From: a virus
Taxonomy: Duplodnaviria; Caudoviricetes
DNA: 64,000 nt
Reading direction: 5' to 3' (one strand)
IMG/VR virus record: IMGVR_UViG_3300036546_000172
Span: 32,001 to 96,000 of that record
The notes beneath the pieces were generated by a model. It was not told where the DNA came from. It saw nothing but the letters and a program-made list of their open reading frames with translations, and ran no database searches. The translations under genes and the position numbers were made by a program. Of this stretch, positions 39,401-62,454 are shown in pieces (position 1 is the stretch's first letter; each line of letters begins with the position of its first letter).

Positions 39401-40285
39401 ATGAGTAATATCAAATCGCTGTACAAATCAAAACACATTAAGAACATTGAGCCTTGGATCGTTGAGAATATCCAATACGAGACTATCATGGGATCTCAAG
39501 CCTACGGAGTCTCCTCTGATAACAGCGATCTGGATCTGTACTCATTCACTGTACCTCCTCGTGGAATAGTGTTTCCTCACACTCAAGGGTTCATATCGGG
39601 GTTTGGCAAGCAACCTCCAAATTTCAAAGTGTATCAACAGCACCACATTGAGACAGATGGCGTGTCTCACGATATCAACGTGTACAACATCGTCAGCTAT
39701 TTCCAGTTATTGATGGACAATAATCCCAATCTGATTGACAGTCTCTTTACACGCACACAGTCTGTGACTCATTCAACCAAGATTGGCAACATGGTGAAGG
39801 ATCAACGTCGTATTTTCCTGCATAAGGGAGCATGGCACAGGTTTAAAGGCTATGCTTACGCTCAGATGAAGAAGCTCAGGAGCAAACACGTTGAACCTGA
39901 GAGTAAGCGCTTTGAATCCATCATGAAATATGGCTACGATGTCAAGCACGCGTATCACGTAGTTCGTCTCCTGAATGAGGTTGAGCAGATCTTGATGTAC
40001 GGTGATATTGATCTCATGCAGAACAACGACCAGTTAAAAGATGTGCGTAATGGTGAATGGTCACTGGAGTTCTTGGAACAATATTTCGAGACCAAGGAGG
40101 TTGCGCTTGAGAAGTGTTATCACCAATCGGAGTTGCAGAAATATCCAGACGAGACTAGAATTAAGCAATTATTACTAGATTGTCTGGAAGAATTCTATGG
40201 CCAGGTTAGCGAAGAGGAGGTGCGTTTAGTGTCTGAGCACGAACGCGCCATTGAAGAGATTAAACAGATCATGAGGAAGCTATAA
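39401..40285 (+). CDS. Pol-beta superfamily nucleotidyltransferase (RlaP / PF10127-like)
   Basis: GSQAYG....SDLD, NPN.I..LF, F.GYA..Q, GYD.K.A.H..RLL, L..VR.GE. Confidence 0.8.
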   Translation: MSNIKSLYKSKHIKNIEPWIVENIQYETIMGSQAYGVSSDNSDLDLYSFTVPPRGIVFPHTQGFISGFGKQPPNFKVYQQHHIETDGVSHDINVYNIVSYFQLLMDNNPNLIDSLFTRTQSVTHSTKIGNMVKDQRRIFLHKGAWHRFKGYAYAQMKKLRSKHVEPESKRFESIMKYGYDVKHAYHVVRLLNEVEQILMYGDIDLMQNNDQLKDVRNGEWSLEFLEQYFETKEVALEKCYHQSELQKYPDETRIKQLLLDCLEEFYGQVSEEEVRLVSEHERAIEEIKQIMRKL

Positions 40286-47794: not shown

Positions 47795-49051
47795 ATGGAT
47801 TCTTATAGACAAGCTCTTCAGTACTGCCGAGATGGTTTGTTAAAAATGACAGACGATGGCGAGGGTCATCGTCTGTTCTGCTACACCAAGTCTTGCTTTT
47901 TTGGTAAAGATACATGGGACGATGTCACTAAGACTCATCGCGGCAAGCTGTACTATGAGAACAAGCCCGTTAATCACCCATTCACTAAGATCTTTAACGT
48001 AGATGAAGTTACAGAGACTGAGCATAACCTCATCTACAATCGCATGCAGAATGAACCATACGAGATCCTAGATAAGGCTAATGGACATTTGTTCATAGTA
48101 TCGATGTTCCAGGACTCCAAAGGTGAGCAGCACGTGGTATTCTCTACCAAGGGCTCAATGCCGAACCCCGAGAACGATCTACTGAATGATGACATTCGTA
48201 TATTCGCTCACAAATACTCAGAACAACTGGATAAGCTGTGTTTTGTGATGCCTAATGTTACATTGATGTTTGAGGCTATCGTCGCTCATGATAAGCACTC
48301 AATGTATGATCTGCAGGTCGAGCAGTATGGATCTGAAAACGACTTTGTTCTGCTCGGTGCTGCAATCAACCTAGGACGCGAGCACATCGACCTCGGTAAC
48401 GAAGATGAGTTAAAGAACATCCAGCATTCAGAGCACAATACAACTACACTGGCTGACTATCCGTGGGTAGAAAGTGATTGGCACCAATTGTTGAAGCTAT
48501 CACATTTCATCGGTTGTCCTGTTGTCCATTGCTACGATTTCATTGAAGGCTCACCTGAGACCTGGAAAGAGCATACTGATCGTGAAGGTTATGTGATTCG
48601 TTTCCTGACAGATAACGCAAGAGTTAAGATCAAGACTACTGAATATTGGAAGAATCGATTCAAAAAAGATCTGACACCTGAGGTATTATTATCTACGTTC
48701 GCTAAAGGCGGAGCTGCATTGATGCAGGAGAAGATCGCTAACAAATGCATTGCTAAAATCGAAAGTTATTTCATCTCATGGTACATGGATGATCTGATTC
48801 GATGGAAATCTGAAGTGCTGCCATACCTGAAACAGAAGAACAATCAATTGTCATCTAAAGATCGCAAATGGCTGTTCACTGAATCCTACTTCTGCAGTTT
48901 CCAGCGTCAATACATTGCAGCGATAGTAGATGGTAAGAATCTGGATATCACACAGAACAAAACTCTGCGTCAGATGTTCGTAGATGATGTAGCTCTTGAG
49001 CGTGCAGATATCAAACAATCGCTTGAACAGATTGTAGTGAATGCTCTATAA
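47795..49051 (+). CDS. RNA ligase (Rnl1-like)
   Basis: RG...PF.KIFN, motif I DKANG, STKG, TLMFE, EGYVI, VKIKT..Y. Confidence 0.82.
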   Translation: MDSYRQALQYCRDGLLKMTDDGEGHRLFCYTKSCFFGKDTWDDVTKTHRGKLYYENKPVNHPFTKIFNVDEVTETEHNLIYNRMQNEPYEILDKANGHLFIVSMFQDSKGEQHVVFSTKGSMPNPENDLLNDDIRIFAHKYSEQLDKLCFVMPNVTLMFEAIVAHDKHSMYDLQVEQYGSENDFVLLGAAINLGREHIDLGNEDELKNIQHSEHNTTTLADYPWVESDWHQLLKLSHFIGCPVVHCYDFIEGSPETWKEHTDREGYVIRFLTDNARVKIKTTEYWKNRFKKDLTPEVLLSTFAKGGAALMQEKIANKCIAKIESYFISWYMDDLIRWKSEVLPYLKQKNNQLSSKDRKWLFTESYFCSFQRQYIAAIVDGKNLDITQNKTLRQMFVDDVALERADIKQSLEQIVVNAL

Positions 49052-49054
49052 TGA

Positions 49055-49579
49055 ATGAAACGTGAGGACATAACTATGATATTTTTAATGAGAGCTACCA
49101 CTTGTTCAGGCAAGAGCACATTCATTGCTCAAAACTTTCCTAATTCAAATGCAGTATTCTCATCAGATGATTTCCGTGAGATGCTGACCGGTGATAGGAC
49201 AAATCAGCAGTTCAATAAGCGAGTGTTTGAGATCATGCATTCGATTATTGACTTCCGTCTGCACAATCGAGCTGAATACACAGTGTATGATGCTACTAAT
49301 CTGCGCATTCGTGATGCTTCAATGATGATCGAATTGTCCAAGAAACATCAGATTCCATTGACGGTGATTTCAATCGAACCTCCTACACTGGATGAACTGA
49401 TCAGACGCAACCGCATTCGTAATAACGAGACTGGATTCAACGTACCTCAGAATGTGATAGAGAAGCATCTTCATCGATACTATGAGTGTATGGATCCTTT
49501 CTTGGAGGAGAGTAAAAATAATCTTCTGTTCAAGTTTATTGAGATAAACCAAGATCATGAGGTGATTCGTGAAGTATAG
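49055..49579 (+). CDS. Polynucleotide kinase-like P-loop protein
   Basis: CSGKST, SSDDFR, YDATN, RN..R...VP..VI. Confidence 0.82.
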   Translation: MKREDITMIFLMRATTCSGKSTFIAQNFPNSNAVFSSDDFREMLTGDRTNQQFNKRVFEIMHSIIDFRLHNRAEYTVYDATNLRIRDASMMIELSKKHQIPLTVISIEPPTLDELIRRNRIRNNETGFNVPQNVIEKHLHRYYECMDPFLEESKNNLLFKFIEINQDHEVIREV

Positions 49580-50330
49580 TCCAATACATTCACAATCTGT
49601 GACTATGGGTCATCACATACGCACGTTTGGTCAAGATGTGTGGATTATTGGTGACGTACATGGATGCTATCGTGAGTTTAGAGATCTGTGTCATCAGATC
49701 AGACGTCTAAATTCACAAGCTATCATTATACAACTGGGTGATCTCATCGATCGAGGACCTGGGATGTCTCAAGTGTTTGATGTGATTGAAGATTATAATG
49801 TGATATGCACCATTGGAAACCATGAGTTGAACTTTCTGATGGAGCATGATGGAGTCAAGCGATGCAACAGCAAAGCACGACACATCAATCATGATCGCAT
49901 GGCTTCATACTCCATCGGTGAACAAGATCGTATCTTAACTCACCTGCGAAGCATGTATAATGTCATAGTGGTAGATATTGAGCTCAAAACAGGTGAAATC
50001 GAGCGCTGGTGTCTATCACACGCTCCGGTCAAAGGGTATGAGCAGGCCTGGCCTTTCCATGGTCTGCAATCACGCAATGCCTGGACCTATTGCTCACGCA
50101 CAGAGCCTTATGATGAGACTTACCTACACAGTGATGACAGAGCCGCTCACGGACATCAGCATTGGAACTATATTCCAATTGAGGATCAGATTGCTCAGAT
50201 ATTAGCTGGTGAGAGAAAAACATTGAACGTGGATGGAGGCTGTGTGTACGGCGGTGAACTAGCGGCTGTTAATCTCAACAGTCTATTTGCATTAAAAATC
50301 GGTGCATATGAGAGTTACTGGAAACAGTGA
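49569..50330 (+). CDS. Metallophosphoesterase (Pnkp phosphatase-like)
   Basis: IGDVHGC, LGDLIDRGP, GNHE, HGH, VDGGCVYGGEL. Confidence 0.88.
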   Translation: MKYSPIHSQSVTMGHHIRTFGQDVWIIGDVHGCYREFRDLCHQIRRLNSQAIIIQLGDLIDRGPGMSQVFDVIEDYNVICTIGNHELNFLMEHDGVKRCNSKARHINHDRMASYSIGEQDRILTHLRSMYNVIVVDIELKTGEIERWCLSHAPVKGYEQAWPFHGLQSRNAWTYCSRTEPYDETYLHSDDRAAHGHQHWNYIPIEDQIAQILAGERKTLNVDGGCVYGGELAAVNLNSLFALKIGAYESYWKQ

Positions 50331-58078: not shown

Positions 58079-58162
58079 GGGGGAGTGGTGAAATGGCAGA
58101 CACAGCGGTGTTAAGTACCGTCGCCTTAGCGCGTGTGGGTTCGAATCCCACCTCCCCCACCA
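58079..58162 (+). tRNA. tRNA-Leu(TAA)
   Basis: GGGGGAG/CTCCCCC acceptor, long variable arm, loop GT-TAA-GT, CCA. Confidence 0.85.
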
Positions 58163-58196
58163 AACAACTCCCGATAGCTCAGCTGGATAGAGCAAC

Positions 58197-58324
58197 AGAG
58201 ACAACAAAGCCTCGCGCTAGCTCAATTGGATAGAGCACCTCCCTTCTTTTGTGCATTCGTGTAGTGTACAAAAGAAGGAGGTGGTTACTGGTTCGACTCC
58301 AGTGCGCGAGGCTTTGTTGTCTTT
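58197..58324 (+). ncRNA. tRNA-Arg(TCT)-derived RNA with a 27-nt anticodon-loop insert and extended acceptor helix
   Basis: Intact D and T arms; insert 58248-58274 pairs with the anticodon; 19-bp terminal helix; no CCA. Confidence 0.8.
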
Positions 58325-58377
58325 AAAAATACAAAATATGATTCCCACTCGGGAATCCAATATAAGATAGGTGACAT

Positions 58378-58656
58378 ATGAATTCACATTTGAGTTTACT
58401 CGGATGCCGAGCAAGAGATAAAGTAACAGGTATCGAAGGTGTGGTAACTACTGTATCATTTGATTTGTACGGTTGCATTCAAGCAGTACTGACTCAGAAG
58501 GCAGATGAGAAAGGTGAGTATAAGATGTCACCGTGGTTTGATGTTACACGCCTTGACATCGTTGACCATAACCCGGTTATGACACAGCCGAACTTTGAAC
58601 TGGGATATGTTGCAGAAGGTAAGAAGGGAGCTGCAGAAAAACCTCAGCCTATGTGA
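58378..58656 (+). CDS. Hypothetical phage protein (SH3-like)
   Basis: LLG...RDKVTG..GVVT...FDLYGC.Q...WFD..RL. Confidence 0.65.
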   Translation: MNSHLSLLGCRARDKVTGIEGVVTTVSFDLYGCIQAVLTQKADEKGEYKMSPWFDVTRLDIVDHNPVMTQPNFELGYVAEGKKGAAEKPQPM

Positions 58657-58673
58657 TGTTAAATCGACAGTTA

Positions 58674-58864
58674 GATAAATAGAAAGGTATAAACAAGGAA
58701 CCAATGATGAACACTCAAAACACCATCGATGCGTCCAATATGCATCCCGGATATAGTAATTCGATGGCTCTCTGTGGCTATAAGCCAGGATACAGAGAAC
58801 GAGGGTTTTGAGCTGATATTGCAGTCATAGTTCATCAAACCCTCCAGTTGGAGGGTTTCTTTTT
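58674..58864 (+). promoter_or_regulatory. Late promoter, leader ORF and attenuator-like alternative hairpins
   Basis: GATAAATA 58674-58681; ORF 58704-58811; terminator AAACCCTCC-AGTT-GGAGGGTTT-CTTTTT 58837-58864; competing GAGGGTTT at 58801-58808. Confidence 0.7.
58704..58811 (+). CDS. Putative 35-aa leader peptide
   Basis: RBS AAGGA 58695-58699; MMNTQNTIDASNMHPGYSNSMALCGYKPGYRERGF*. Confidence 0.55.
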   Translation: MMNTQNTIDASNMHPGYSNSMALCGYKPGYRERGF

Positions 58865-58892
58865 ATACTCGGATAAGGTACAATGAGTTTTC

Positions 58893-58978
58893 GGGTAAGC
58901 GGTGAAGTTGGAGAGTCACACCAGATTGTAACCCTGGCGCCATGTGCTGAGTAGGTCCGAATCCTACCTTACCCACCA
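58893..58978 (+). tRNA. tRNA-Tyr(GTA), degenerate
   Basis: Cloverleaf with CCA, but C at position 8, T-loop GTCCGAA and an A31-C39 mismatch. Confidence 0.7.
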
Positions 58979-58985
58979 ATAACAG

Positions 58986-59014
58986 TTGCACAACATCACA
59001 GGACATCATATAAT
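58986..59014 (+). promoter_or_regulatory. Sigma70-type promoter
   Basis: TTGCAC-17 bp-TATAAT. Confidence 0.75.
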
Positions 59015-59051
59015 ATTTGTAAGTTAAGATGACCTAGAGAAGGAATCAGAG

Positions 59052-59537
59052 ATGAACGCAACTACCTATATCATGAGCAAGCTGGATGAAGTTTTCGCGC
59101 CAATGGATGCAAAAGTACTGGAAGCTTCAAAGAAGTGGGGCGTTGAGCGTTTTGAGGCGATCAAAGAGCTGAGAGCTTCAGGAGAACTGAACGGTTTGAA
59201 CTCAGCTGAGAAATATGATCGTCTCTACGCGGTAGCTGGTGGTAAGACTTGGTACAATATCTTCAACGGTCGTAATGCTAAAATGATCGAAGAGATCATG
59301 GAAAAGAATTGCAAGATGACCGCTGAGAAGCGGAATGCTAAGATTGCAAGTAAGTTGGAGAAGGCTGGCGTTACAGAGGTGCTCAGCTCTGACTTCAGCG
59401 ACACACACGATGGATTCAACGGCTACTTCGGCGTCGAAACCAACAAAGGTAAGAAGACAGTAGAAGTAGAAACAATTTATGCAGGTGGATACAACATTCA
59501 ATGCCTGCATCTGAGAGTACTGGTGAGGGTCAAATGA
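59052..59537 (+). CDS. Hypothetical phage protein inserted in the tRNA array
   Basis: 161 aa, C-terminal TI.AGGYNIQCLH.R.L; own promoter and RBS. Confidence 0.7.
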   Translation: MNATTYIMSKLDEVFAPMDAKVLEASKKWGVERFEAIKELRASGELNGLNSAEKYDRLYAVAGGKTWYNIFNGRNAKMIEEIMEKNCKMTAEKRNAKIASKLEKAGVTEVLSSDFSDTHDGFNGYFGVETNKGKKTVEVETIYAGGYNIQCLHLRVLVRVK

Positions 59538-59546
59538 CCCTCCTTT

Positions 59547-59623
59547 CGGAGCTTAGCTCAGCTTGGTAGAGCATCCGGTTTGGGACCGGAAGGTCGAAGG
59601 TTCAAGTCCTTCAGCTCCGACCA
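59547..59623 (+). tRNA. tRNA-Pro(TGG)
   Basis: Canonical cloverleaf, loop TT-TGG-GA, CCA. Confidence 0.92.
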
Positions 59624-59630
59624 TTTTTAT

Positions 59631-59718
59631 TCCCAGGTAGACAAACTGGTAAAGTCGCCGGACTGTTAATCCGGTTTCCGAAAGGATATTGTAGGTTCGA
59701 AGCCTACCCTGGGAGCCA
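59631..59718 (+). tRNA. tRNA-Asn(GTT) with long variable arm
   Basis: TCCCAGG/CCTGGGA acceptor, G73, loop CT-GTT-AA, CCA. Confidence 0.88.
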
Positions 59719-59724
59719 GACAAC

Positions 59725-59813
59725 AGAGAGTGATTCCAGCTGGTGCTGGAGACCGCCTGCTAAGCGGTTCGCCTGATTCATCGGGTGTGGTTCAATTCCA
59801 CCGCTCTCTGCCA
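59725..59813 (+). tRNA. tRNA-Ser(GCT)
   Basis: Loop CT-GCT-AA, long variable arm, G73, CCA. Confidence 0.82.
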
Positions 59814-59814
59814 T

Positions 59815-59913
59815 GGAGAGGTAAGCCGAAAGATCCGGGGTAGCGGCAACGGTCGTGAAAACCGAGGGTTTACGAAAGTAGACGTCAGGGTTCGAATCCC
59901 TGTCTCTCCGCCA
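59815..59913 (+). tRNA. tRNA-Ser(TGA), atypical G33
   Basis: GGAGAGG/TCTCTCC acceptor, long variable arm, loop CG-TGA-AA, G73, CCA. Confidence 0.78.
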
Positions 59914-59919
59914 TATTGT

Positions 59920-59998
59920 GGTGAAGGTGGCCGATATTGGTTAAGGCGCAAGGTTGTGACCCTTGTATATGCGAGTTCGATTCTCGTCCTTCACACCA
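59920..59998 (+). tRNA. tRNA-His(GTG)
   Basis: Loop TT-GTG-AC, G-1 present, A73, CCA. Confidence 0.85.
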
Positions 59999-60003
59999 CT
60001 TAT

Positions 60004-60081
60004 AGGGGCGTAGCTCAGCGGTTTAGCAGCAACCGGCTTTTAACCGGTAGGTCGTGAGTTCGAATCTCACCGCCCCTACCA
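60004..60081 (+). tRNA. tRNA-Lys(TTT)
   Basis: Loop CT-TTT-AA, CCA. Confidence 0.9.
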
Positions 60082-60082
60082 T

Positions 60083-60156
60083 GACGAGTTGGCCGAATGA
60101 CCAGGCGACGAGCTGCAACCTCGTTCATGTGAGTTTGAATCTCACACTCGTCTCCA
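60083..60156 (+). tRNA. tRNA-Cys(GCA)
   Basis: Loop CT-GCA-AC, U73, CCA; T-loop TTTGAAT. Confidence 0.82.
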
Positions 60157-60294
60157 ACATTGATGGTCTTTCGAAATGAATAGTAGTTATCACATATAAA
60201 TGACGCTACAATGTATTTCGAAAGTTAAGAACACCGCCGGACTGGCCCATCCGGGTACTGGTAGGGATTGAAGTTCCTAGGGCCACGCTCTTTA

Positions 60295-60679
60295 ACAAAC
60301 ATCATTGAGGTAGTCTCTAGGTGAGTTAACGGCCATTGACTCATTGAGGATTGGCGGAATAAAGTCGGAGGTCTTGGGCTTAACGCACGTTCAAAGAGGT
60401 GGTTCTCGGTCATCTATCAAATGGTAGATGACGCAGTCTGAAAAGGCTTGAACGGTTCCTTGCATACACTACAGGCTACAGACCCTACTCTGTTAAGCAT
60501 GTCAACAGTTCTCTCACCCTCATGCATGACTTGAAGATATTCTTCATAGTCGATGTCTGGCAACAGATGAGACAACAGATGACCAATCTAAGTCAGTCAG
60601 AGTCAACAAAGAGAGATGCAGGGGTGTTGGTAATAAGCTAGTCCAGCATTCTCACAGAGACTACCTCAATGATGTTTGT
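60295..60679 (+). ncRNA. Unassigned ~385-nt highly structured RNA
   Basis: Perfect 24-bp terminal helix, many internal helices, GAAA and GCAA tetraloops on the + strand. Confidence 0.75.
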
Positions 60680-60684
60680 ATTAG

Positions 60685-60762
60685 TGCAGGGTGGACTGGA
60701 GATGGTTCCAGCTCGGTCTCATAAGCCGAATGACGGGGGTTCGAATCCCTCCCCTGCTTCCA
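60685..60762 (+). tRNA. tRNA-Met(CAT), initiator-like
   Basis: Unpaired 1:72, TCGGT/GCCGA anticodon stem, loop CT-CAT-AA, CCA. Confidence 0.82.
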
Positions 60763-60840
60763 TATAATCGAAAACCTGGTGCGGTGTGATGATACATCTA
60801 CTACAGGGTACCGAGGATGGTAGTTCACTCGGATCTTTTA

Positions 60841-60916
60841 GCCCGGTTAGCACAATTGGGAGTGCAATCGCCTTGTAAGCGATAGGTTGTAGGTTCGAGT
60901 CCTACACTGGGCACCA
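60841..60916 (+). tRNA. tRNA-Thr(TGT)
   Basis: Loop CT-TGT-AA, CCA. Confidence 0.92.
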
Positions 60917-60955: not shown

Positions 60956-61807
60956 ATGTTTAAAGTAACTCTTCCTTCTAACGATGACTTCTACTGTCTG
61001 TGTAATCTGACTGGGTTACCACTTGGTCAATCTCTCATCATCACCAACAATACCAACTCACAAATCAGAGTCAATCGAGTATCGGTTAAGCCAGAAGATC
61101 CTCTATTAGGATTCCCAGTATGGCCTGGTCAGACTATTCTAGTTCATGGTAATGAAGAGCAACCGGTCTGGACCAGAGGTAATACCAACGGCTACATTCT
61201 GGTACAAACTCTGACTGAAACCATGATGCCCCTAACCGGAGTAGAGTTTCCACAGGACATCGTGACATCAGGCATTGAGGGTTTTCGCAGACTTCAAGTC
61301 GATACAGGACAGACCGGATTCTTCGAAGGTCGTGAGTTTCGTTTTCTGCGTAAGATAAGATCCGGCATTACTTTCAAGTTCGTATCGGCTGTAGATTTCG
61401 TGTTGTATGAACAGGTGTTCGGTATCTCTTCAGGAGCTTACGAGTTTCATGCCTGGCGTGTAGATAATGTAGAAGAGACGGCGTCCTTTGGTACTGATCT
61501 GTCACAACACATCATTAACAAAAACGCCTCTGGCGAATACCGAGATTATAATGGAGATAGATATCAAACTCAGGTAAGCATATCATCAGGAGGAACGCTG
61601 GCTATTAACGATGTTGAATTATATACTGACTATGCTGAAATGAGAACGGCAGGTTCTACAGCACAACGAGCGAGTGTGAATCAAGGCGGTAACACACAGC
61701 GATATCTACCAGCAGGTACGTATTACCTATCGTTTACTGTTCTTGATGCACTAGTTCGCGGTACGTATCAAATTGGATGGGAAGAAAGACCATCGGGAGT
61801 GAAATAG
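60956..61807 (+). CDS. Hypothetical late (probably virion) protein
   Basis: 283 aa, beta-rich, preceded by a late promoter. Confidence 0.65.
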   Translation: MFKVTLPSNDDFYCLCNLTGLPLGQSLIITNNTNSQIRVNRVSVKPEDPLLGFPVWPGQTILVHGNEEQPVWTRGNTNGYILVQTLTETMMPLTGVEFPQDIVTSGIEGFRRLQVDTGQTGFFEGREFRFLRKIRSGITFKFVSAVDFVLYEQVFGISSGAYEFHAWRVDNVEETASFGTDLSQHIINKNASGEYRDYNGDRYQTQVSISSGGTLAINDVELYTDYAEMRTAGSTAQRASVNQGGNTQRYLPAGTYYLSFTVLDALVRGTYQIGWEERPSGVK

Positions 61808-62454
61808 TGACACATGCATTAGTGAATAAAGTGAAATTAATTGATGATCGAGACATGGTGATTCGTGCATCTATCGACGGTCAGTTTGAAGCAGATACCT
61901 TCAAGTTCGTTGATCATCATATGCCTGTAGGTGGTCTGTTTATGGATATCGGCGCGTATTCTGGTATCTACTCACTGTACGTGGCTCAGTTCAAAGATGC
62001 AGTAGCTTATGGATTTGAGCCTAACCCATTATTGTTTGAGCGTTTCAATCAGAACATTGAACTGAATGGATTGAGATCTAACATTCAACCGCTCAACTTC
62101 GGATTATCAAACAAACAACAGAAAGCCTCGTTGTACGTCAATCCAAACACACACCTGACATCCGCTGGCAGTCTATCACCAGAACGCGGTAAGACCTCTG
62201 TATTCGAAGTAGATATAGAGGTGTATGATGACATGCCGTTCTCCGTGCTGTCTATTGACATGGTCAAGATAGACGTTGAGGGTCACGAGTCTCAGGTGAT
62301 TGAGGGAATGATTTACACGCTTAAACGTGATCATCCAATTGTCATTGTAGAGTGCTTAGATGAGCAGGCGGTGAAGCAATGTGATGATCTTCTACTACCT
62401 CTTGGATATGAAAGGACTGGTTGTCTCGATGACAGAAACTACACGTACCAATAA
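61807..62454 (+). CDS. FkbM-family SAM methyltransferase
   Basis: DIGA..G.YS, FEPNP, N..LN, KIDVEGHE. Confidence 0.88.
   Translation: MTHALVNKVKLIDDRDMVIRASIDGQFEADTFKFVDHHMPVGGLFMDIGAYSGIYSLYVAQFKDAVAYGFEPNPLLFERFNQNIELNGLRSNIQPLNFGLSNKQQKASLYVNPNTHLTSAGSLSPERGKTSVFEVDIEVYDDMPFSVLSIDMVKIDVEGHESQVIEGMIYTLKRDHPIVIVECLDEQAVKQCDDLLLPLGYERTGCLDDRNYTYQ

What the first reader, a model, noticed from the sequence alone, without database searches (positions are those of the whole stretch)
60295..60679. Unassigned ~385-nt structured RNA inside the tRNA array
Seen: perfect 24-bp terminal helix ACAAACATCATTGAGGTAGTCTCT / AGAGACTACCTCAATGATGTTTGT. Internal helices include 60321-60329/60336-60344, GCTTAAC/GTTAAGC, CGTTCAA/TTGAACG, GTCATCTATC/GGTAGATGAC, TCTCTC/GAGAGA and GGGTGTTGG/CCAGCATTC, with GAAA and GCAA tetraloops and a possible pseudoknot GATTGG (60349) / CCAATC (60583). 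No credible ORF. Known: large RNAs of unknown function such as GOLLD and ROOL often neighbour phage tRNAs; I cannot match this one to those, tmRNA, RNase P or a group I intron by eye. Inference: possibly a new large ncRNA class, perhaps a ribozyme or a decoy for a defence protein.
Basis: partly seen in the sequence, partly recalled or inferred. Interest (0 to 1): 0.8.

Follow-up and report, generated by a model that had tools for sequence, protein, structure and literature searches.

The report
Enlarged manA-like phage RNA with clamp
The flagged 385 bases encode a real, evolutionarily maintained folded RNA of an uncultured T4-like phage; it is an enlarged, uncatalogued relative of the known 'manA' RNA (recently reported to build RNA-only cages), with its two ends clamped by a 24-bp helix, and its function is still unknown.

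Summary
The stretch is a real, plus-strand, non-coding structured RNA. The perfect 24-bp terminal helix exists (60295-60318 / 60656-60679). The element is single-copy, has no target-site duplication and no conserved ORF.

I recovered three further lineages from metagenomes (L264, L275/L276, L284; 65-73% identical, 378-381 nt). On their alignment 114 predicted pairs are 99% kept and 45 show compensatory changes (0 of 500 shuffles), ten of them in the terminal helix.

It is not a wholly new class. All four copies hit Rfam manA (RF01745) below threshold (24-41 bits; cut-off 55.2). A model of their 5' core hits canonical manA RNAs in return. Helix order and signature motifs match: the GAAUAA/UAA loop, the GUGGU hairpin, a GNRA hairpin, and the last hairpin plus closing strand.

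Three things differ:
- manA's P8 hairpin is replaced by a ~168-nt multi-helix domain.
- The ACCA loop is missing.
- A 22-24-bp helix clamps the ends.

Best reading: a free-standing, enlarged manA-type RNA released from the phage tRNA-array transcript. By analogy it may self-assemble; its function is unknown. This scan noted enlarged manA-like RNAs before on other phage DNA; they share no sequence words with this one.

The parts
60295..60679 (+). Whole RNA element (381-385 nt from clamp to clamp)
   Evidence: Homologues of 378-381 nt in L264, L275/L276 and L284. 99.1% of 456 pair cells are kept, with 45 compensatory pairs. 45 G-U cells mark the plus strand as the RNA strand: 452 cells pair on plus against 409 on minus.
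60295..60318 (+). P0 clamp helix, 5' arm (pairs with 60656-60679)
   Evidence: 24-nt perfect inverted repeat. 22 bp are kept in all four copies, 10 of them with changes on both sides (helix 1).
60656..60679 (+). P0 clamp helix, 3' arm; ends 5 nt before tRNA-Met (60685-60762)
60321..60344 (+). P1 hairpin, 9 bp, invariant loop CGGCCA (manA P1 equivalent)
   Evidence: 6 of 9 pairs are compensatory (helix 2). Aligned to manA model positions 1-16.
60345..60350 (+). P2 closing helix, 5' strand (UGAGGA), pairs with 60650-60654 (UCUCA); equivalent of manA GGGAG/CUCCC
   Evidence: helix 3: 100% paired, 1 compensatory and 2 one-sided changes. Comparison with canonical manA.
60354..60386 (+). P3 hairpin with GAAUAA / UAA internal loop (manA signature)
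   Evidence: helices 4, 5. GAAUAA, UAA and the spacing are shared with canonical manA.
60388..60454 (+). P4 junction stem enclosing P5 (loop GUGGUU), P6 (10-bp hairpin, loop CAAAU) and P7 (GAAA tetraloop)
   Evidence: helices 6-9 (P4: 5 of 6 pairs compensatory). Aligned to the manA four-way junction.
60457..60624 (+). Domain B: 8-bp stem P8 (60457-60464 / 60617-60624) enclosing five further helices. It stands where canonical manA has its 36-nt P8 hairpin.
   Evidence: helices 10-17 (17 compensatory pairs). Coordinates. No Rfam match.
60627..60646 (+). Last hairpin (UUGG / CCAG, 12-nt loop UAAUAAGCUAGU), equivalent of the manA P9 hairpin
   Evidence: helix 18. The loop is nearly invariant in the four copies. 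Resembles canonical GGUAAUACAGAAUUCC followed by CUCCC.
60650..60654 (+). P2 closing helix, 3' strand
   Evidence: helix 3.

Best explanation
**What it is.** Window 60295-60679 is the gene of a free-standing, about 380-nt structured RNA of an uncultured T4-like phage (137.9 kb; nearest isolate Pseudomonas phage pf16). It is a divergent, enlarged member of the manA RNA lineage.

**Shown: it keeps the manA architecture in the same order.**
- P1 hairpin and closing helix P2.
- P3 with the GAAUAA/UAA loop.
- A four-way junction with the GUGGU-loop hairpin and a GNRA hairpin.
- A last hairpin with a UAAUA... loop, then the closing strand.

**Shown: three changes from manA.**
- manA's P8 hairpin has grown into a ~168-nt multi-helix domain.
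- The ACCA loop is gone.
- A 22-24-bp helix (P0) clamps the 5' and 3' ends.

**Inferred: how it is made.** It is transcribed on the plus strand together with the tRNA array. It is probably cut out by the host's tRNA and rRNA processing enzymes. RNase P cleavage at tRNA-Met, 5 nt downstream, would set the 3' side. The long perfect clamp is a likely RNase III substrate and/or a shield for the ends.

**Inferred by analogy only: what it does.** It probably acts as an RNA particle that self-associates through its invariant loops. In a 2026 preprint, canonical manA RNAs do this in vitro, forming decamers and a 60-mer cage. It probably does not act as a switch for a neighbouring gene.
For: **A real RNA.**
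- Four distinct copies in three lineages are 65-73% identical and 378-381 nt long.
- Of 114 consensus pairs, 99.1% of cells pair and 45 pairs have compensatory changes. No shuffle of 500 reaches this, and slid controls give 1-5.
- 45 G-U cells favour the plus strand, and indels are 1-2 nt.
- The neighbouring FkbM methyltransferase is only 43% identical in protein between the window and L264, while the RNA is 73% identical in nucleotides.

**Related to manA.**
- Rfam RF01745 matches all four copies full length at the same place: 33.1, 37.1, 41.3 and 24.4 bits, E 5e-8 to 5e-3.
- L275 and L284 were found through a protein neighbour, not through a manA-like pattern.
- Model R1 of this family's 5' core hits 13 canonical manA RNAs at their Rfam positions (E 2e-7 to 1e-2). 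It hits nothing else in 261 kb.
- The 3' hairpin plus closing strand correspond by inspection.
- The context is the same: canonical manA RNAs lie flush between tRNAs in phage contigs.

**A self-contained module.**
- Its neighbours differ. Downstream: tRNA-Met 5 nt away (window), ~110 nt then tRNA-Met (L284), or the methyltransferase ORF (L264, L275). Upstream: a pseudoknot RNA, a tRNA, or ~300 nt of other sequence.
- Precedent: the T4 tRNA cluster transcript also yields the non-tRNA species I and II RNAs (PMC2330249).

**Assembly analogy.** Preprint 10.64898/2026.07.01.735769.
Against: - All manA scores are below Rfam's gathering score of 55.2, whereas canonical copies score 89-195.
- Sequence-only comparison with canonical manA is weak: nhmmer E 4e-4 at best, and only over the motif region.
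- The ACCA loop, which in canonical manA is complementary to the GUGGU loop, is absent.
- The P9 correspondence rests on inspection, not on a score.
- There are only three independent lineages, so tertiary contacts cannot be tested.
- In L264 and L275 the RNA ends about 40 nt before the methyltransferase start, so a leader role there is not excluded.
Confidence: 0.7

Rival explanations
1. It is a new RNA class unrelated to manA. On this view the shared short motifs and helix order are convergence, or a chance sub-threshold match.
For: - Scores of 24-41 bits lie below the manA cut-off of 55.2.
- More than half of the molecule (domain B and the clamp) has no counterpart in any Rfam family.
- One homologue (L264) and the canonical set used for the reciprocal test were retrieved with a pattern that contains the shared motifs. 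This favours matches.
Against: - The first Rfam hit was not pattern-selected.
- L275 and L284 came through a protein neighbour. L284 lacks the exact pattern (GAACAA, GUGGG) yet still matches manA full length.
- The reciprocal model hits only manA sites in 261 kb.
- The same nine-element order, the identical 15-nt spacing between UAA and GUGGU, and the same genomic niche are shared.
Confidence: 0.12
2. It is a cis-acting leader or riboswitch that controls the downstream FkbM-family methyltransferase. This was the role first proposed for manA motifs.
For: - The RNA and the methyltransferase are linked in all four contigs.
- In L264 and L275 the RNA ends about 40 nt before the start codon.
Against: - In the window two tRNA genes and a 283-aa ORF lie between them (about 1.1 kb). 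In L284 three tRNAs lie between them.
- The clamp closes the RNA on itself and leaves no expression platform.
- Linkage is expected from shared ancestry of these phages.
Confidence: 0.08
3. It is a catalytic RNA: a self-cleaving or self-splicing element, or a processing ribozyme, lodged in the tRNA transcript.
For: - Its size, the many invariant unpaired nucleotides and the position between tRNAs fit.
- The paired ends resemble the geometry of some introns.
Against: - There is no match to group I or II introns, RNase P, or any self-cleaving family, even at E up to 10.
- The flanks are not two halves of a tRNA or of a gene.
- The core matches manA, for which no catalysis is known.
Confidence: 0.05
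4. It is a DNA-level element: a MITE-like transposon with terminal inverted repeats, a cruciform, or a replication or packaging signal.
For: A perfect 24-bp terminal inverted repeat.
Against: - There is a single copy in the 137.9-kb genome.
- There is no target-site duplication: the flanks are ...CTTTA and ATTAG....
- The arms change by paired compensatory substitutions, including a G-U pair.
- 45 G-U cells over the whole fold work only on the plus-strand RNA.
- Internal helices covary as well.
Confidence: 0.02

Closest known systems
manA RNA motif (Rfam RF01745; Weinberg et al. 2010, PMC2864571; cryo-EM preprint 10.64898/2026.07.01.735769)
   Same: - The order of elements is the same: P1 hairpin, closing helix, P3 with the GAAUAA/UAA loop, a four-way junction whose first hairpin carries the GUGGU loop, a GNRA hairpin, and a last hairpin with a UAAUA... 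loop followed by the closing strand.
- The niche is the same: tRNA arrays of T4-like phages.
- Covariance-model matches are mutual.
   Different: - Scores are below the family threshold (24-41 against 55.2 bits).
- The 36-nt P8 hairpin is replaced by a ~168-nt five-helix domain.
- The P7 loop is GAAA instead of ACCA.
- The P1 loop is CGGCCA instead of GACG.
- The ends are clamped by a 22-24-bp helix that canonical manA lacks.
- Total length is ~380 nt against ~190 nt.
GOLLD and ROOL large ornate RNAs (cryo-EM: PMC12286853)
   Same: Large, ornate, phage-associated non-coding RNAs that often lie beside tRNA genes. They form RNA-only multimers in vitro and their function is unknown.
   Different: No sequence or model similarity. 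This RNA is shorter and its core is manA-like.
Species I and II RNAs of the phage T4 tRNA gene cluster (PMC2330249)
   Same: Non-tRNA stable RNAs that are co-transcribed with, and processed out of, a T4-type tRNA cluster precursor.
   Different: The T4 RNAs are much smaller. No relationship to them was tested here, and the comparison is of context only.
RNase III processing stems that flank 16S and 23S rRNA in bacterial rRNA operons (textbook knowledge)
   Same: Long, near-perfect helices formed by the sequences flanking a structured RNA. These are the classical way to excise an RNA from a polycistronic precursor.
   Different: Cleavage of this clamp is not shown. Here the stem is conserved as part of a ~380-nt RNA and may stay in the mature molecule.

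Membership tests
manA RNA (RF01745) | Covariance-model score at or above Rfam's gathering score (55.2 bits) | tested here: not met
   33.1 bits in the window. 37.1, 41.3 and 24.4 bits in L264, L275 and L284. Canonical copies score 89-195 bits.
manA RNA (RF01745) | 5' P1 hairpin followed by a closing helix (GGGAG...CUCCC) that encloses the rest | tested here: met
   P1 is 60321-60344, with 6 compensatory pairs. P2 is UGAGGA 60345-60350 with UCUCA 60650-60654, 100% paired in four copies with one compensatory pair. The Rfam alignment placed the 3' strand wrongly because of the large insertion.
manA RNA (RF01745) | P3 hairpin with conserved GAAUAA and UAA internal-loop strands | tested here: met
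   GGAAUAA at 60356-60362 and UAA at 60381-60383. L284 has GAACAA.
manA RNA (RF01745) | Four-way junction: stem plus three hairpins, the first with loop GUGGUG, 15 nt after UAA | tested here: met
   P4 to P7 lie at 60388-60454. The P5 loop is GUGGUU, and its spacing is identical to canonical manA.
manA RNA (RF01745) | Third junction hairpin with ACCA loop (complementary to GUGGU; the L5-L7' kissing contact of the preprint) | tested here: not met
   P7 carries an invariant GAAA tetraloop in all four copies. An invariant GCCA in the P1 loop could substitute, but that is conjecture.
manA RNA (RF01745) | P8: single ~36-nt hairpin with internal loop | tested here: not met
   It is replaced by domain B, 60457-60624: an 8-bp stem enclosing five helices.
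manA RNA (RF01745) | P9: short hairpin with 11-nt loop, directly followed by the closing strand | tested here: inconclusive
   UUGG / CCAG with the 12-nt loop UAAUAAGCUAGU, followed 3 nt later by UCUCA. It resembles canonical GGUAAUACAGAAUUCC...CUCCC by inspection. nhmmer gave no hit there.
manA RNA (RF01745) | Homo-oligomeric assembly (decamer or 60-mer) through kissing loops | not testable with these tools
   Known only from in vitro cryo-EM of canonical manA.
MITE-like DNA element | Multiple copies, target-site duplication, terminal repeats conserved in sequence rather than in pairing | tested here: not met
   Single copy, no duplication, and 10 compensatory pairs in the arms.

The most novel reading that the evidence does not exclude
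The clamp brings the two ends of a manA-type core together, so the RNA is cut within P0 and then either kept as a nick-closed particle or ligated into a circle. The phage's own Rnl1-type ligase, kinase and phosphoesterase set at 47795-50330 could do the ligation. In this reading domain B and the palindromic GGCC loop supply new contacts, so the RNA builds an RNA-only multimer or cage in infected cells. That would be a distinct architecture from the canonical manA 60-mer.
Probability: 0.15. Interest if true: 0.85.

Novelty: new variant of a known kind. Interest (0 to 1): 0.55.

Why it matters
manA was catalogued in 2010 as a riboswitch candidate and has no known function. A 2026 preprint reports that canonical copies form RNA-only decamers and a 60-subunit cage in vitro.

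This family shows that the manA core tolerates three changes under strong selection for structure:
- a doubling in size;
- loss of one kissing-loop partner;
- a long terminal clamp.

It also occurs as an autonomous module among phage tRNA genes. Two uses follow:
- It gives structural biologists a natural variant for asking which contacts set the assembly geometry.
- It gives phage biologists a defined RNA to delete or overexpress when asking what manA-type RNAs do during infection.

It also marks a gap in Rfam: the present manA model misses this subfamily.

Tried and rejected
**Searches that found no further copies.**
- blastn of the element and of two homologues against 50,697 GenBank phage records gave no match.
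- pf16, the nearest isolate, has neither the element nor manA.
- Neighbour proteins as single queries in IMG/VR found no relatives.
- Contigs carrying homologues of the 283-aa neighbour (L143-L147) lack the element at the syntenic place. Their full records are not held.

**Pattern scans.**
- The loose manA-like patterns in IMG/VR were swamped by chance hits and canonical manA.
- The refined pattern found only canonical manA there. It found one true homologue in metagenomes and none in GTDB genomes.
- Scans with three other conserved blocks gave only chance hits: L289 is coding sequence.

**Other steps.**
Domain B has no GAAUAA or GUGGU motifs and gives no manA hit.
- nhmmer with a canonical manA profile gave only weak motif-level hits. 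That profile was partly contaminated by chance pattern hits.

Full report
**Setting.** The window is bases 32001-96000 of a 137,942-bp IMG/VR virus record with direct terminal repeats.
- It encodes T4-type terminase, tail sheath, major head protein, gp46-like and Dda-like proteins.
- Its head protein is 72.6% identical to that of Pseudomonas phage pf16. The next relatives are Methylophilales, Pelagibacter and cyanobacterial T4-like phages.
- All genes and tRNAs around the finding are on the plus strand.
- ARAGORN and Rfam together find tRNA genes from 58079 to 60916. The finding lies between tRNA-Cys (60083-60156) and tRNA-Met (60685-60762).

**The observation.**
- The arms 60295-60318 and 60656-60679 are perfectly complementary over 24 nt.
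- The plus strand folds with z = -6.5 against shuffles.
- Only short ORFs overlap the stretch.
- The element occurs once in the genome, and the flanks carry no duplicated target site.

**First clue to identity.** No Rfam family reaches its gathering score. With permissive thresholds, positions 60321-60491 give a full-length match to manA (RF01745): 33.1 bits against a cut-off of 55.2, E 4e-8 for the genome.
- Canonical manA RNAs fetched from IMG/VR score 89-195 bits, so this is not an ordinary member.
- manA was described in marine metagenomes and T4-like cyanophages as a riboswitch candidate (PMC2864571).
- A 2026 preprint reports that canonical manA RNAs form RNA-only decamers and a 60-mer cage through kissing loops L5-L7' and L8-L9' (10.64898/2026.07.01.735769).
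- In IMG/VR contigs canonical manA often lies flush between two tRNA genes. One example is L247 8018-8216, between tRNA-Thr and tRNA-Asn.

**Finding homologues.** GenBank phages, pf16 and IMG/VR gave nothing.
- I built a pattern from the positions that the element shares with canonical manA and made it exclude the canonical type. In JGI metagenomes it found one true relative, L264 (nhmmer E 4e-53).
- In L264 the RNA lies just upstream of an FkbM-family methyltransferase. That protein is 43% identical to the window's ORF 61777-62454.
- Searching with that protein pair and fetching the contigs gave two more copies: L275 (identical in L276) and the more distant L284.
- From clamp to clamp the copies are 378-381 nt long. 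The three lineages are 65-73% identical, and indels are 1-2 nt.

**Structure.** RNAalifold on the four sequences (A3) predicts 114 pairs, 45 of which carry changes on both sides.

| Measure | Result |
|---|---|
| Pair cells that pair | 99.1% of 456 |
| Compensatory pairs | 45 |
| Shuffled mean | 17.3 |
| Shuffles reaching 45 | 0 of 500 |
| With partners slid by 1-3 columns | 1-5 |

- The clamp P0 keeps 22 bp in every copy. Ten pairs are compensated, and only the inner half varies.
- There are 45 G-U cells. Read as the minus strand, pairing falls from 452 to 409 cells, so the RNA is the plus strand.
- The helices, with window coordinates:
  - P0.
  - P1 hairpin, 60321-60344, with the invariant loop CGGCCA.
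  - P2, 60345-60350 with 60650-60654.
  - P3, 60354-60386, with GAAUAA/UAA.
  - P4 junction, 60388-60454, holding P5 (loop GUGGUU), P6 and P7 (GAAA).
  - Domain B, 60457-60624: P8 stem plus five helices, one capped by GCAA.
  - A last hairpin, 60627-60646, with loop UAAUAAGCUAGU.

**Relation to manA.**
- The three other lineages also match RF01745 full length at the homologous place: 41.3, 37.1 and 24.4 bits. Two of them were retrieved without any manA-like pattern.
- A covariance model of this family's 5' core (R1, 138 positions) hits 13 canonical manA RNAs at their Rfam coordinates (20.6-41.5 bits, E 2e-7 to 1e-2). It hits nothing else in 261 kb.
- Full canonical alignments show what follows the junction: a 36-nt hairpin (P8), then a short hairpin with an 11-nt loop (for example GGUAAUACAGAAUUCC), then CUCCC, which pairs with GGGAG.
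- Here the same places hold domain B, then UUGG-UAAUAAGCUAGU-CCAG, then UCUC, which pairs with GAGG.
- The Rfam alignment had forced the closing strand onto ACCCU at 60482 because it cannot span the insertion.
- So every manA element is present in order except two. P8 is expanded about five-fold, and the ACCA loop of P7 is absent.
- The clamp P0 is an addition. Canonical copies that lie flush between tRNAs have no room for one.

- GATTGG/CCAATC and GCTTAAC/GTTAAGC fail on covariation.
- TCTCTC/GAGAGA is kept in all copies with one compensatory change and would be a pseudoknot.
- GGGTGTTGG/CCAGCATTC is also largely kept but excludes P8 and P2. This is unexplained with three lineages.

**Mechanism.** Shown: this is a plus-strand RNA under strong selection for a manA-like fold. 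It has variable immediate neighbours but constant linkage to the same genome region.

Inferred:
- It is co-transcribed with the tRNA array, as T4 species I and II RNAs are with theirs (PMC2330249).
- It would be released by RNase P at tRNA-Met, 5 nt downstream.
- It would also be released by cleavage near or in P0. A perfect 22-24-bp duplex is the classical substrate length of bacterial RNase III (textbook knowledge).
- The same array holds a tRNA-like RNA whose acceptor stem is prolonged to a perfect 19-bp helix (58199-58322). This suggests a shared way of release or protection.

By analogy only, the invariant loops may mediate self-assembly as in canonical manA. These loops are CGGCCA with a palindromic GGCC, GUGG, GAAA and the 12-nt last loop. 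A leader role for the methyltransferase is unlikely, because tRNAs and an ORF intervene in two of three lineages.

**Limits.** There are only three lineages. The P9 correspondence rests on inspection. Part of the comparison set was selected by pattern.

**Earlier notes.** Earlier notes of this scan describe enlarged manA-like RNAs in other phages. They share no sequence words with this one, so whether they are the same subfamily is open.

**Verdict.** This is a real RNA and a new, enlarged, clamp-closed variant of the manA kind, with unknown function.

Noticed in passing
window 60225-60290: A ~65-nt pseudoknotted RNA lies just upstream of the element and is a separate conserved module. Its hairpin CCGGA/UCCGG covaries. 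Its loop UGGCCC pairs with downstream GGGCCA, covarying as UGGCUC/GAGCCA in L284 and UAGCUC/GAGCUA in L279. It also occurs in L264, in L275 (631-709), and alone before tRNA-Glu in L279. No Rfam match.
   Followed up: partly
window 58199-58322: A tRNA-like RNA (Rfam tRNA, 51 bits at 58211-58311) whose acceptor stem is prolonged to a perfect 19-bp helix and whose anticodon arm is an ~18-bp hairpin. A partial duplicate of its 5' part precedes it at 58168-58194.
   Followed up: partly
window 59724-59810 and 59816-59908: ARAGORN missed two long-arm tRNA-like genes. Rfam calls the first tRNA-Sec (59.8 bits), but its anticodon loop reads CUGCUAA, that is GCU (Ser). The second scores only 27 bits.
   Followed up: no
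window 47795-50330 and 39401-40285: RNA repair genes in the same phage: an Rnl1-type RNA ligase, an AAA_33 kinase, a metallophosphoesterase and an RlaP nucleotidyltransferase. They matter for any idea of RNA end-healing or circularisation.
   Followed up: partly
window 60622-60624 (A3 columns 348-350): These three G covary with two mutually exclusive partners: the 5' strand of P8, and 60649-60651. This is either chance or two alternative conformations.
   Followed up: partly
L247 8018-8216; L248, L249, L252, L253, L257: A second sequence type of canonical manA (GAAUAACUCUGUUGG...) scores 119-133 bits. It lies flush between tRNA-Thr or tRNA-Ala and tRNA-Asn in uncultured phage contigs. Of the canonical types it is the closest to the present family by model R1.
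   Followed up: partly
L275 700-1020: In L275 about 300 nt of non-coding sequence lie between the small pseudoknot RNA and the big RNA. They include a tRNA-like T-arm (GGTTCGATTCC) and repeated ...GAGCCGCC... blocks. Their nature is unknown.
   Followed up: no
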